Assembly (NCBI RefSeq): GCF_003334255.1
Contig: NZ_QOWU01000081.1
Source of the DNA: Escherichia coli
Lineage (GTDB): Bacteria > Pseudomonadota > Gammaproteobacteria > Enterobacterales > Enterobacteriaceae
DNA: 12,747 bases
Reading direction: 5' to 3' (one strand)
Shown: piece by piece, positions 1,298 to 3,153 of the stretch
Layout: each line of letters begins with the position of its first letter
How positions within the stretch are numbered: the stretch's first letter is position 1
The notes under the pieces: generated by a model
Seen by the model: only the letters and a program-made list of their open reading frames with translations
What the model was told of the DNA's origin: nothing
Database searches by the model: none
Made by a program: the position numbers and the translations under genes

Positions 1298-1318
1298 AAA
1301 AAACCCGCCGAAGCGGGT
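1298..1318 (-). terminator. Rho-independent terminator ending the 216-aa/HTH-peptidase operon
   Basis: Plus-strand AAAAAACCCGCCGAAGCGGGT; on the minus strand this is a CCCGC/GCGGG stem with a 4-nt loop followed by a U6 tract, 5 nt after the stop of the 1323-2426 gene. Confidence 0.65.
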
Positions 1319-1322
1319 ATAC

Positions 1323-2426
1323 TCAAACAATCTGGAAAATATTTCTTGGATTTGTAATAGGTCTGTTGATGGAGAACAACTCACGAATTAAATCTTGGCT
1401 CAAGCCAGTTTTCATAAGAATTCTTAGCCAGGTTGCATCATCCAGCATTTCAATCGCCTCGGCCAGCATGCCGGGTTCTTCAGGGCGCAAAAGTTCATCA
1501 CCAGGTTCAACTCTCGTATACCCTCTGGAATTAAGATGCATATAGCCAGTTCTTGCCTGTTCCTGGGTCAATAAGCCTAATGCGCTGGCTCGATAAATAC
1601 ACATTTTAAGGCTGATTTTCCATCTAAGTTTAAATTCAACCAGAGCATTCCAGTCGAATTGCTTACCTCGTATTCGTGGAAATTCTTTAATGAAAGATAA
1701 CCTGGGAACTAATAAGGCGCTCGAAAAGTGATCGGCTTGTGATTCCGTAAGTTTATCACCTGTCGTTATGCCCTCATGCATTACTAAATGCCCTAATTCA
1801 TGACCTAAATCAGAGCGAAATCTACATATGCTTTTTTTAACATTGTTCCTGATGATAACAGGCCTGTTATTGTGAACAGTAAAAGCATCAACACGATCAT
1901 CGACTCCCGTAACATGCGCAACGATTACCCCTAAACTCTCCGCCAATTTAACCATTGATGATATAGGGCCAAGACCTAAATTCCAGGCACGGCGACAATC
2001 TTCTGCCACTCGCTCAATATCATTCGGAGTAAGTAATTCAGCCCCTGGGTGCTCCGGTATGTTAACGTCAGGAAATTCGATTTCACCTTCAACAGCAGAA
2101 ATTATAATATTAAGAATCTCAGCCCTGGCCAATACACTATTAGTCAGCGTTTGAGTCCTGGACTTCTTACTCCGAAAATGGCAGACATCACTTTCCAGAG
2201 CGTATTTTCGTTCAGTAAAAAGAAAACTGGACTTAATCATAAGCGCTGAAGATATTAACTCAAGACATTGCTCCGATGGCCTGCACCCCTTCTCCAGTTT
2301 GCTAACGAATTGCTTTGTCTTGCCAATTTTTTCGGCTAACTCTTCACAAGAAAGCCCAACAGCCATTCTCGCTAGTTTGAGCTTATCACCCCGATACTCA
2401 GTGAAGTTATTCACCTGATGTTCCAT
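1323..2426 (-). CDS. Fused XRE-family HTH / ImmA-IrrE (COG2856) zinc-metallopeptidase, about 367 aa
   Basis: N-terminal HTH (LKLARMAVGLSCEELAEKIGKTKQFVSKLEKG); zinc-peptidase motif HELGH followed by LVMHEG at about residues 210-220; downstream conserved ...ESQADHFSSALLVP... typical of COG2856. The ORF track starts at GTG 2429; the ATG at 2424-2426 is the more likely start. Overlaps the upstream gene by 20 nt. Confidence 0.85.
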   Translation of the reverse strand: MEHQVNNFTEYRGDKLKLARMAVGLSCEELAEKIGKTKQFVSKLEKGCRPSEQCLELISSALMIKSSFLFTERKYALESDVCHFRSKKSRTQTLTNSVLARAEILNIIISAVEGEIEFPDVNIPEHPGAELLTPNDIERVAEDCRRAWNLGLGPISSMVKLAESLGVIVAHVTGVDDRVDAFTVHNNRPVIIRNNVKKSICRFRSDLGHELGHLVMHEGITTGDKLTESQADHFSSALLVPRLSFIKEFPRIRGKQFDWNALVEFKLRWKISLKMCIYRASALGLLTQEQARTGYMHLNSRGYTRVEPGDELLRPEEPGMLAEAIEMLDDATWLRILMKTGLSQDLIRELFSINRPITNPRNIFQIV

Positions 2427-3057
2427 CACTGCTCACATCCAAATCTTTATCCTTCGTACGCCGACGAAGAGGCACCTTATTAATCTCCGCTTCGTCAGGG
2501 AGTGTGTTATAATCAAGAGGCATAAGCGGCATCGATGCTGTAGATTGATGAGAAACTATACTAATCTGAGCACCATAAGTATTAAATCCAACAAGAGCTA
2601 CCTCCCAACGAGGCAGTGTGGACTCTAATTCACCATCGCCCTCTTCGGATAAAAAAGGCTCAGCTATGACTCGCCATGTAATATCTTGCTCAGCCTCAAC
2701 ATCACCAAACAATGAGAGCTGCTCATACTCTACTTTATTTCGACGCAGACGATGTTTCTTTTTGGGGTTATTAATGCAATCTTTGGTAAATTGTAGCGGA
2801 ACTTTATTTAAAGCAACTACATAGTCCAACCCCTTGGAAATCATCTCAAGGCCAGGAATTGCATCTTCATTTTGAATAAGATGATTTCTGACCCAATCAT
2901 AAGCCCTTACACCTTCAGACCAGTTGCTGTCTAATGCGTGCTTATGATAGTACAGCTGCTCAAGTACGTTAGCGATCTCCGCCAACAAGTGGCGAACATA
3001 GTTTTCAGCAAGATAAGGTTGAAATTCCCAACAAGGAGCTAACTGATTTTCATTCAT
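2407..3057 (-). CDS. Uncharacterised 216-aa protein with acidic C-terminal tail; first gene of a two-gene operon with the HTH-peptidase
   Basis: ORF track; ATG 3055-3057, TGA 2407-2409 overlapping the downstream start. No Shine-Dalgarno sequence evident. No family recognised. Product begins MNENQLAPCWEFQPYLAENYVRHLLAEIANVLEQLYYHKH. Confidence 0.7.
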   Translation of the reverse strand: MNENQLAPCWEFQPYLAENYVRHLLAEIANVLEQLYYHKHALDSNWSEGVRAYDWVRNHLIQNEDAIPGLEMISKGLDYVVALNKVPLQFTKDCINNPKKKHRLRRNKVEYEQLSLFGDVEAEQDITWRVIAEPFLSEEGDGELESTLPRWEVALVGFNTYGAQISIVSHQSTASMPLMPLDYNTLPDEAEINKVPLRRRTKDKDLDVSSDGTSGE

Positions 3058-3092
3058 TTCAAGTTTCGCTTTTTTTAGAATTCGTAAACCAC

Positions 3093-3121
3093 ATATTTTC
3101 GCATTTTTCTATTTTTGTCAA
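3093..3121 (-). promoter_or_regulatory. Candidate sigma70 promoter for the 216-aa/HTH-peptidase operon
   Basis: On the minus strand: TTGACA (3116-3121), 17-nt spacer, AAATAT (3093-3098), about 35 nt upstream of ATG 3057. The -10 element is weak. Confidence 0.35.
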
Positions 3122-3133
3122 CCAGACTAATGC

Positions 3134-3153
3134 AAAAACCCGCCGAAGCGGGT
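3134..3153 (-). terminator. Rho-independent terminator of the hok mRNA
   Basis: Plus-strand AAAAACCCGCCGAAGCGGGT, the same 20-mer as at 1299-1318; on the minus strand a hairpin followed by a U5 tract, about 70 nt after the hok stop. A second GC-rich fold-back (GGCGGGGGAG...CTCCCGCC, 3190-3215) lies between hok and this terminator. Confidence 0.65.

What the first reader, a model, noticed from the sequence alone, without database searches (positions are those of the whole stretch)
1299..3153. Identical 20-bp terminator hairpins as direct repeats flanking the cassette
The 20-mer AAAAACCCGCCGAAGCGGGT occurs twice on the plus strand, at 1299-1318 and 3134-3153. On the minus strand each is a terminator: the first ends the HTH-peptidase operon, the second ends the hok transcript. 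The whole 216-aa/peptidase cassette, including its promoter, lies exactly between them. Identical terminators bracketing a cargo module suggest acquisition or exchange by recombination within the terminator sequence, or a recently duplicated boundary.
Basis: seen in the sequence. Interest (0 to 1): 0.4.

Follow-up and report, generated by a model that had tools for sequence, protein, structure and literature searches.

The report
Defence gene cassette bracketed by twin terminators
Two identical 20-base transcription-terminator hairpins bracket a known two-gene anti-phage module (RosmerTA) in an E. coli prophage. The module comes and goes as a unit exactly at these hairpins, but the hairpin is one of the commonest terminators in E. 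coli, so this is an ordinary prophage "moron" sitting in a cargo hotspot.

Summary
AAAAACCCGCCGAAGCGGGT occurs exactly twice, at 1299-1318 and 3134-3153, with 0 expected by chance. On the minus strand each copy is a UUCG-loop hairpin followed by a U-run.

The DNA between the copies is a RosmerTA toxin-antitoxin defence operon: rmrT at 2407-3057 and rmrA at 1323-2429, with its own conserved promoter. It lies between hokD/sok and a rem remnant in a Rac/Qin-like prophage. 237 of 5426 complete E. coli genomes carry it.

Empty sites with a single hairpin exist, including one on the window's own backbone type. In 108 related loci, every cargo of 650 nt or more had two hairpins and every short site had one. 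At least six cargo types use this site: three RosmerTA variants, a Doc-like toxin, an XRE/protease pair and a lipoprotein.

The hairpin is ubiquitous: a median of 12 places per E. coli genome, the rplM-rpsI terminator in K-12, and at least 120 phage contigs with unrelated flanks. Relatives of the cassette at other phage sites carry hairpins of their own. No near-isogenic empty site was found, so nothing points to a recent duplication.

Best reading: this is a moron hotspot whose mosaic joints fall in a shared terminator, probably through short-homology recombination. It is ordinary and of modest interest.

The parts
1293..1318 (-). Downstream boundary hairpin (copy 1 of the 20-mer at 1299-1318). 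It is an intrinsic terminator, ACCCGC-UUCG-GCGGGU plus a U-run, placed 4 nt after the rmrA stop codon. Its outer (left) flank is backbone and its inner (right) flank is cassette.
1323..2429 (-). rmrA, 368 aa. This is the RosmerTA antitoxin: an XRE-type HTH followed by an M78 (ImmA/IrrE) Zn-peptidase with an HELGH motif.
   Evidence: PADLOC RmrA PDLC03943, E 6e-105. Pfam HTH_3 and Peptidase_M78. Sequence.
2407..3057 (-). rmrT, 216 aa. This is the RosmerTA toxin, of unknown biochemical function. It overlaps rmrA by 23 nt.
   Evidence: PADLOC RmrT PDLC03929, E 5e-25. No Pfam match. phrog_5786.
3058..3133 (-). Cassette promoter and 5' leader. The -35 is TTGACA at 3121-3116. A weak -10, AAATAT, lies at 3098-3093 with a 17-nt spacer. 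The block TTGGTTGACA...GCGAAAATAT.TGGTTTACGAAT...AGCGAAACTTGAA is conserved in every genomic context of the cassette.
   Evidence: Read from the sequence. Conservation across contexts is shown. It was not picked up by the consensus scan, so promoter activity is inferred.
3134..3153 (-). Upstream boundary hairpin (copy 2 of the 20-mer). It is the terminator of the hokD/mok transcript and the only hairpin present in empty sites. It lies 12 nt upstream of the cassette's -35.
3223..3548 (-). hok/sok type I toxin-antitoxin locus: hokD CDS at 3223-3378, mok frame extending to 3435, and sok antisense RNA family match at 3373-3548. This is the conserved right-hand neighbour of the hotspot.
   Evidence: RefSeq annotation of the identical record. 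Rfam sok RF01794, 120.5 bits.
992..1292 (-). rem remnant (5' part of rem, phrog_340; annotated as a pseudogene at 1091-1165) with its upstream leader. This is the left-hand backbone, which abuts hokD's hairpin directly in empty sites.

Best explanation
The interval holds a self-contained prophage 'moron': a RosmerTA toxin-antitoxin anti-phage operon (promoter, rmrT, rmrA, own intrinsic terminator). It lies just downstream of the hokD terminator in the nin-type region of a Rac/Qin-like lambdoid prophage. This spot is a cargo hotspot.

The two 20-mers are the terminator of the upstream unit (hokD) and the terminator of the cassette. Both belong to a very common enterobacterial terminator type, CCCGC-loop-GCGGG with a UUCG loop.

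The hairpin and its A/T-run are the only sequence shared by backbone and cargo. Crossovers between collinear phage genomes, or a Campbell-type insertion or excision of a looped-out circle, therefore resolve inside it. That gives occupied site = empty site + cargo + one more hairpin.

Shown here: what the cassette is, that it is present or absent as a unit, where the joints lie, that the hotspot carries diverse cargo, and that the hairpin is ubiquitous. Inferred: that the 20-30 bp homology itself guides the recombination, for example through the prophage's own RecE/RecT-type system or host RecA; that the promoter and terminators are active; and that the system defends against phage.
For: The cassette is RosmerTA. 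RmrA scores E 6e-105 and RmrT 5e-25 in PADLOC. RmrA has HTH_3 and Peptidase_M78 domains and an HELGH motif.

The window is 100% identical to E. coli G1/2. There the cassette lies between hokD and a rem remnant in a prophage that also carries racR, dicB and an exonuclease.

Empty sites with a single hairpin are found in L002 and L007, in L126 and L058, and in L292. L292 has the window's own backbone type, and a synthetic precise-deletion query aligns to it in one piece across the joint.

Homology to empty sites ends at 1318 and resumes at 3133-3135.

In 108 loci that have both hok and the conserved 90-aa gene: 48 had 55 nt and 1 hairpin; 35 had 346-553 nt and 1 hairpin; 25 had 652-2272 nt and 2 hairpins. 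There were no exceptions.

Cargo types with different content are bounded by the same hairpin: RosmerTA-1, RosmerTA-2 (phage Tritos), the RosmerTA archetype (L183), a Doc-like toxin, an XRE plus metalloprotease pair, and a lipoprotein.

The same cassette is joined to three different left backbones, with the break at position 1293 or at the hairpin. All four combinations of rem present/absent and cassette present/absent exist, and only the hairpin lies between the two polymorphisms.

At the hok site every cargo's outer hairpin is hok-like: loop CGAA, or one mismatch. The 80%-related cassette elsewhere has loops ATATA, AAGCA, ATGCA, ATGAA and CATTGG.

The cassette is AT-richer than hokD and the genes further left.

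An experimentally supported precedent exists: recombination between repeated promoter/stem-loop cassettes creates indels and mini-circles in T4-type phages (PMC2839356).
Against: The hairpin is so common that identity could be convergence rather than shared descent or homology-guided exchange. It occurs at a median of 12 places per genome, including the rplM-rpsI terminator, and in at least 120 phage contigs.

20-30 bp is at the lower limit for homologous recombination.

Joints could map to terminators simply because only intergenic joints that keep the terminators intact survive selection.

rem and other short alleles sit at the same spot without a second hairpin, so not every variable segment follows the two-hairpin rule.

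No near-isogenic pair of occupied and empty sites was found; flanks are about 93% identical. No individual event can therefore be reconstructed.

The IMG/VR loci are not independent samples.

The -10 element is weak, and the consensus scan did not call a promoter there.
Confidence: 0.6

Rival explanations
1. Coincidence of function, with no role for homology. Every independent transcription unit needs a terminator, and this UUCG-loop hairpin is simply the most common strong terminator in E. coli and its phages. Cargo arrives by illegitimate recombination anywhere. Only joints that fall between a complete upstream terminator and a complete cargo unit survive. The two copies are identical through convergence on an optimal sequence.
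For: The 20-mer, or near-identical sequence, is found at 7-19 places in every one of 5426 E. coli genomes. One of these is the terminator after the core rplM-rpsI operon. It also occurs in at least 120 phage contigs with unrelated flanks. Relatives of the cassette at other phage sites carry their own, different, hairpins. This architecture is how morons are described: a promoter and a terminator around a gene, lying between two genes that are adjacent in other phages (own knowledge: Juhala et al. 2000).
Against: At the hok site seven unrelated cargos all end in a hok-like hairpin (loop CGAA or one mismatch), whereas the same RosmerTA cassette elsewhere ends in hairpins with five other loops. 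Convergence would not be site-specific in this way. Homology breaks lie within a few bases of the hairpin in every comparison. The four-combination pattern of rem and cassette needs repeated events at exactly this 20-30 bp.
Confidence: 0.27
2. A recent local duplication or a target-site duplication. The cassette was inserted by a transposition-like or replication-slippage event that copied hokD's terminator, so the two copies are young paralogues.
For: The two copies are exactly identical over 20 bp, and the occupied site equals the empty site plus cargo plus one repeat. That is formally the signature of a target-site duplication.
Against: The cassette has no transposase or recombinase gene, and no terminal inverted repeats lie at its ends. 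20 bp is much longer than typical target duplications (own knowledge). Related cassettes in unrelated contexts already have a hairpin on each side. A 94%-identical copy of the cassette has a left hairpin that differs in the loop (CGTA), so the left hairpin has a history of its own. The cassette is fixed in 237 genomes, and the nearest empty backbone is about 7% diverged.
Confidence: 0.06
3. A dedicated site-specific system. The hairpin is recognised as a folded structure by a recombinase, in the way an integron integrase recognises attC or a Y1 transposase recognises its hairpin, and cassettes are captured at it.
For: There is only the formal resemblance: hairpin-bounded cassettes of diverse content at one site, with one hairpin per empty site.
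Against: No integrase or Y1/HUH enzyme gene is annotated within the 22.9 kb fetched around the site; the only recombination-type genes there are an excisionase (cut by the locus end), RusA and an exonuclease. The hairpin is a 16-nt perfect stem-loop, identical to housekeeping terminators that show no sign of cargo capture. It is far shorter than attC sites (own knowledge).
Confidence: 0.03

Closest known systems
Morons of lambdoid phages (Juhala et al. 2000, Hendrix et al. 2000; cited from my own knowledge, the papers were not read here)
   Same: It is an independent transcription unit with its own promoter and factor-independent terminator. It lies between two genes that are adjacent in related phages, has a different base composition, and can be expressed from the prophage. 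All the structural points were checked here.
   Different: The moron's terminator and the upstream neighbour's terminator are the same 20-mer. The site also carries at least six alternative cargos, each with the extra hairpin.
PeSL (promoter-early stem-loop) mobile regulatory cassettes of T4-type phages (Arbiol et al. 2010, PMC2839356)
   Same: A short repeated regulatory element containing a terminator stem-loop flanks the variable ORFs. The related genome that lacks the ORF has a single copy of the element. The proposed mechanism is recombination between the flanking copies, either directly or through a mini-circle.
   Different: PeSL homology spans about 100 bp and includes a shared sigma-70 promoter. 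Here only about 20-30 bp is shared (hairpin plus A/T-run), and the promoter is specific to the cargo. The phage here is temperate and lambdoid, not T4-like. No circles were looked for or can be shown here.
RosmerTA defence system (Millman et al. 2022, bioRxiv 10.1101/2022.05.11.491447)
   Same: It is a two-gene operon. The toxin has no known domain. The antitoxin has an HTH plus a Zn-peptidase. Both proteins hit the PADLOC RosmerTA models.
   Different: Nothing differs structurally. The window's RmrT is a distant member (E 5e-25, against 7e-92 for the variant in L183). Defence and toxicity were not tested for this allele.
Prophage defence hotspots of P2-like phages and P4-like satellites (Rousset et al. 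2022, PMC9122126; only the abstract was seen)
   Same: A fixed position between conserved phage genes holds interchangeable anti-phage or toxin-antitoxin cargo across E. coli prophages.
   Different: The phage family and the flanking genes differ (hokD and rem, or a 90-aa gene, in Rac/Qin-like lambdoids). Here the cargo boundaries coincide with a repeated terminator hairpin.
Integron gene cassettes with attC
   Same: Cassettes of diverse content are bounded by a hairpin-forming element, with one element left at an empty site.
   Different: There is no integrase. The hairpin is a 16-nt perfect terminator, not a 57-141 bp imperfect attC. Each cassette has its own promoter. This is a resemblance only.

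Membership tests
RosmerTA (RmrT/RmrA) | Antitoxin RmrA with an N-terminal XRE-type HTH and a Zn-metallopeptidase domain with HEXXH | tested here: met
   PADLOC RmrA models: 14 hits, best E 6e-105. Pfam HTH_3 (residues 17-63) and Peptidase_M78 (residues 177-282). HELGH is present in the sequence.
RosmerTA (RmrT/RmrA) | Toxin RmrT, with no known domain, encoded immediately upstream in the same operon | tested here: met
   PADLOC RmrT PDLC03929, E 5e-25 over residues 7-209. No Pfam match. The ORFs overlap by 23 nt on the same strand.
RosmerTA (RmrT/RmrA) | Toxicity of RmrT neutralised by RmrA, and protection against phage | not testable with these tools
   Only the published system was tested: the delta-rmrA mutant could not be transformed.
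Intrinsic (Rho-independent) terminator | GC-rich stem, short loop, followed by a U-run on the transcribed strand, downstream of a gene | tested here: met
   Both copies are listed by the terminator scan (6-7 pairs, 5 of them GC, loop of 4, T-run). Folding energies are -10.9 and -15.1 kcal/mol. The copies lie 4 nt after the rmrA stop and 70 nt after the hokD stop.
Intrinsic (Rho-independent) terminator | Actual termination of transcription | not testable with these tools
   This needs 3'-end mapping. Indirect support: the same 26-mer follows the rplM-rpsI operon in K-12.
Moron | Lies between two genes that are adjacent in related phages | tested here: met
   rem and hokD, or the 90-aa gene and hokD, are adjacent with a single hairpin in L002, L007, L292 and in 83 of 108 sampled loci.
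Moron | Own promoter and own terminator | tested here: inconclusive
   The terminator criterion is met. For the promoter, there is a perfect -35 TTGACA and a weak -10 AAATAT with a 17-nt spacer. The block is conserved in all contexts, but the consensus scan did not call it. No expression data are available.
PeSL-like mobile regulatory cassette | The same repeated element flanks the variable segment, and a single copy is present where the segment is absent | tested here: met
PeSL-like mobile regulatory cassette | The repeated element contains a shared promoter as well as the stem-loop, with about 100 bp of conservation | tested here: not met
   Only the hairpin and the adjoining A/T-run (about 20-30 bp) are shared between the two ends and among different cargos. 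The sequences just inside the hairpins differ between cargo types.
PeSL-like mobile regulatory cassette | Excised mini-circles | not testable with these tools
   This needs outward-facing PCR or read-level data.
Transposable element with target-site duplication | Transposase gene and terminal inverted repeats | tested here: not met
   The only two ORFs are RmrT and RmrA. No inverted repeat pairs the two ends of the cassette.
Integron cassette | Nearby integron integrase and attC-type recombination sites | tested here: not met
   No integrase is annotated in the 22.9 kb fetched around the site; it includes an excisionase gene cut by the locus end. The hairpin is a 16-nt perfect stem-loop.

The most novel reading that the evidence does not exclude
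The common UUCG-loop terminator hairpin may act as a portable, recombinase-independent 'docking site'. On this reading, units of the form terminator-promoter-cargo-terminator (RosmerTA, Doc, and others) circulate among the classical moron sites of lambdoid phages. The sites seen here are the nin region next to hok, a position after the O/P-like genes, the junction between the tape-measure and gpM-like genes, and a position next to the lysis genes. Movement would be by short-homology recombination at the hairpin, perhaps through excised mini-circles as in T4-type PeSLs. That would make terminators a general currency of defence-gene exchange in temperate phages. The conserved 'hairpin + UAUUGCCCGGAG + start codon' unit, seen before many unrelated phage genes, would be a second form of the same thing.
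Probability: 0.3. Interest if true: 0.55.

Novelty: new member of a known kind. Interest (0 to 1): 0.3.

Why it matters
This gives a clean, sequence-level example of how defence and toxin-antitoxin cargo is swapped in temperate phages. One fixed intergenic spot next to hokD in Rac/Qin-like prophages holds at least six alternative cargos, and every joint falls in a 20-bp terminator hairpin.

If the hairpin homology really guides the exchange, terminators would serve two purposes. They would act as transcriptional insulators and as recombination joints. That would extend the PeSL idea from T4-type phages to lambdoid phages, and it would give a simple rule for finding new cargo: look between twin terminators downstream of hok.

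In practice the site is a searchable hotspot for candidate defence genes. Taken alone, the window shows a known system in a known type of arrangement.

Tried and rejected
1. Recent duplication or excision. A synthetic precise-deletion query found true empty sites on the same backbone, but only at about 93% identity. No near-isogenic pair turned up, so no recent event can be claimed.

2. Uniqueness of the 20-mer. I expected it to be phage-specific. It is not: it is in all 5426 E. coli genomes at several places, and it is the rplM-rpsI terminator.

3. Transposon or integron reading. Rejected. There is no mobility gene, no terminal inverted repeats and no integrase within 22.9 kb.

4. Is the left hairpin foreign to the cassette? 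No. Relatives of the cassette in five other contexts all have a CCCGC-loop-GCGGG hairpin after rmrA, and most have a hairpin before the promoter.

5. The Pfam search of the 216-aa protein gave nothing. PADLOC was needed to identify it.

6. A PADLOC search of the Doc-like cargo, the XRE/protease cargo and the lipoprotein cargo found no known defence system. Only PHROGs gave names, and the lipoprotein family is of unknown function.

7. A literature search for a hokD-linked defence hotspot found nothing. This is weak evidence, because the library is incomplete.

8. A whole-window search against phage records and a second E. coli search mainly confirmed context and prevalence. They did not reveal non-hok contexts. 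Those came from the protein-guided scan of viral contigs.
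Full report
**Observation**

The 20-mer AAAAACCCGCCGAAGCGGGT occurs exactly twice in the 12,747-base window, at 1299-1318 and 3134-3153, both on the + strand. No further match appears with up to 3 mismatches, and none appeared in 200 shuffles (also family D8). The identity stops at 20 bases.

Read on the minus strand, each copy is ACCCGC-UUCG-GCGGGU followed by a run of U. Both are listed by the terminator scan. They fold at -10.9 and -15.1 kcal/mol.

**What lies between the copies**

The 368-aa ORF (1323-2429, minus strand) matches 14 PADLOC RmrA models, the best at E 6e-105. 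It has Pfam HTH_3 and Peptidase_M78 domains and an HELGH motif.

The 216-aa ORF (2407-3057, minus strand) matches PADLOC RmrT at E 5e-25 and has no Pfam domain.

Together these make a RosmerTA system. [quoted passage not shown]

Upstream of rmrT there is a perfect -35 (TTGACA, 3121-3116) and a weak -10 (AAATAT, 3098-3093). This block is conserved wherever the cassette occurs. The consensus scan did not call it, so promoter activity is an inference.

**Genomic setting**

The window is 100% identical to E. coli G1/2. It is part of a Rac/Qin-like lambdoid prophage, seen here in reverse orientation. The gene order is: Q-like antiterminator, rusA, DUF968/ydfU, a 90-aa gene, a rem remnant, the cassette, hokD with sok, a queH-like gene, replication genes, racR, dicB/DicF, and an exonuclease.

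The cassette in this context is present in 237 of 5426 complete E. coli genomes. At least 60 of these are 100% identical over 2151 bases, including strains 042 and ABU 83972.

**Empty-site comparison**

Many prophages have rem, or the 90-aa gene, directly next to hokD with one hairpin between them (L002, L007).

Homology of the window to these sites ends at 1318 and resumes at 3133-3135.

A synthetic query made by deleting 1319-3153 aligns in a single piece across the joint in five complete genomes. One of them, L292, was read and has the window's own backbone type with a single hairpin.

The occupied site therefore equals the empty site plus the cargo plus one more hairpin.

**A cargo hotspot**

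I classified 108 loci that contain both the hok 3' end and the 90-aa gene:

| Distance from the 90-aa gene to the hok terminator | Hairpins | Loci |
|---|---|---|
| 55 nt | 1 | 48 |
| 346-553 nt (rem and other short alleles) | 1 | 35 |
| 652-2272 nt | 2 | 25 |

There were no exceptions.

The two-hairpin loci hold several cargo types:
- this RosmerTA cassette, on three different left backbones;
- a second RosmerTA variant, in phage Tritos;
- the archetypal RosmerTA (L183, RmrA E 4e-201);
- a Doc-like toxin with a small upstream ORF;
- an XRE plus metalloprotease pair;
- a 130-aa lipoprotein gene followed by a 3' remnant of an rmrA gene.

Nothing but the hairpin and its A/T-run is shared between the ends of the different cargos.

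All four combinations of rem present/absent and cassette present/absent exist, and only the hairpin separates the two polymorphisms. That pattern requires recombination, or repeated events, within those 20-30 bases.

**Why the identity proves less than it seems**

That test is met.
- A 30-nt probe centred on the hairpin finds 7-19 places (median 12) in every one of 5426 E. coli genomes.
- In K-12, a 26-nt exact match (A6-CCCGCCGAAGCGGG-T6) lies just downstream of the rplM-rpsI ribosomal protein operon.

In addition, relatives of this cassette (about 80% DNA identity, 92% for RmrA) sit in other places in other phages:
- nin-type regions next to DnaC-like and DUF1367 genes;
- after O/P-like replication genes;
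- between a tape-measure gene and a gpM-like gene;
- next to lysis genes (a more distant relative: 73-74% RmrA identity, about 68% DNA identity).

At most of these sites the cassette has its own CCCGC-loop-GCGGG hairpin after rmrA, with loops ATATA, AAGCA, ATGCA, ATGAA or CATTGG; one locus has the exact 20-mer. The more distant relatives next to lysis genes (L284-L286) show no such hairpin after rmrA. Most also have a hairpin 12-15 nt upstream of the -35. A terminator at each end is therefore the cassette's usual state, and elsewhere the two are not identical.

Finally, the nearest empty sites on the same backbone are only about 93% identical in the flanks. Nothing points to a recent duplication or excision.

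**What still favours exchange at the hairpin**

At the hok site all seven cargo arrangements end in a hok-like hairpin: loop CGAA, or one mismatch (CGTA, CGAG). The same RosmerTA cassette elsewhere ends in five other loops. Convergence on an optimal terminator would not be specific to one site in this way. Crossovers that resolve inside the hairpin, leaving chimeric hairpins, would be.

A documented precedent exists in T4-type phages. There, repeated promoter/stem-loop cassettes (PeSLs) flank variable ORFs, the sister genome has a single copy, and recombination between copies yields indels and mini-circles (PMC2839356).

Here the shared segment is only 20-30 bp and carries no shared promoter, so this is an analogue and not a member of that family. 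The prophage encodes a RecE-type exonuclease. Phage recombinases of this kind are known to work on very short homologies; that statement rests on my own knowledge and was not tested here.

**Verdict**

The interval is a textbook moron: a RosmerTA defence operon with its own promoter and terminator, AT-richer than hokD and the conserved genes to its left. It is parked in a cargo hotspot just after the hokD terminator.

The 'recently duplicated boundary' reading is not supported. The identity of the two hairpins is weak evidence by itself because the sequence is ubiquitous.

The system, the type of arrangement and the type of mechanism are all known. What may be new is the description of this particular hotspot and its strict one-hairpin/two-hairpin rule. 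A limited literature search found no paper that links hokD with a defence hotspot.

Noticed in passing
Loci L019, L020, L040, L052, L055, L071, L075, L083, L095, L106, L108, L110, L113, L123 and others (25 of 125 occurrences); L280 4107-4150: On the transcribed strand the exact hairpin is often followed by a conserved unit, ACCCGCTTCGGCGGGTTTTT-T(A/T)(A/T)TGCC(C/T)GGAG-N4-8-ATG/GTG. The ORFs that begin there have many different N-termini and lie in different phage contigs. This is a reusable 'terminator + Shine-Dalgarno' intergenic unit. In L280 it joins the RosmerTA-like cassette to a gpM-like tail gene.
   Followed up: partly
L004 and L006 2084-2101; also L156, L159, L160, L188, L200, L238: In prophages that carry the 130-aa lipoprotein cargo, the hairpin next to hokD is degenerate (AACGCCGAAGCGGG). 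It no longer folds as a terminator (-5.5 kcal/mol, z -0.2), so hok transcription may read into the cargo. The cargo is followed by a 3' remnant of an rmrA gene, 73% identical to window 1293-1416.
   Followed up: partly
window 992-1165 (pseudogene annotated at 1091-1165): rem is truncated or diverged here. Homology to K-12-type rem covers only 1098-1318. Window 950-1097 differs from that allele but is shared with other prophages (L126, L058, L292).
   Followed up: partly
window 3058-3125 and the same block in L273-L288: The cassette's promoter and leader, TTGGTTGACAAAA...TGCGAAAATAT.TGGTTTACGAAT..AAAAAAAGCGAAACTTGAA, is visibly better conserved than the coding DNA (about 80%) across unrelated contexts. 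It contains two GCGAAA motifs. It could be an operator for the RmrA HTH domain.
   Followed up: no
window 6980-7069: Five tandem 15-nt units (TCAAC.GTTGA.GGG alternating with TCAAAATTTGACGGG) lie inside the O-like replication gene (6442-7419, minus strand). They look like origin iterons.
   Followed up: no
window 8181-8255 and 8849-8894: Repeated TTAGGC.TAGCCTA palindromes sit on either side of racR (8284-8760). They overlap the two best promoter-like sites in the window (8869-8897 on the + strand, 8216-8187 on the - strand). They are probably immunity-region operators.
   Followed up: no
window 10238-10289 (+): A DicF antisense RNA is present (Rfam RF00039, 62 bits), next to dicB. It is flanked by a perfect 19-nt inverted repeat (10299-10317 and 10441-10459).
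   Followed up: no
window 3616-4302 (-): A prophage gene annotated in RefSeq as epoxyqueuosine reductase QueH lies right next to the hok/sok locus. In PHROGs it falls in phrog_3217, of unknown function. Some related prophages have other genes in its place.
   Followed up: no
NZ_CP069459.1 1256572-1259788 (hit H111): In one E. coli genome the otherwise identical cassette region is about 1.07 kb longer, and an IS5-family transposase is annotated under the match. This would be an IS insertion inside or beside the cassette.
   Followed up: no
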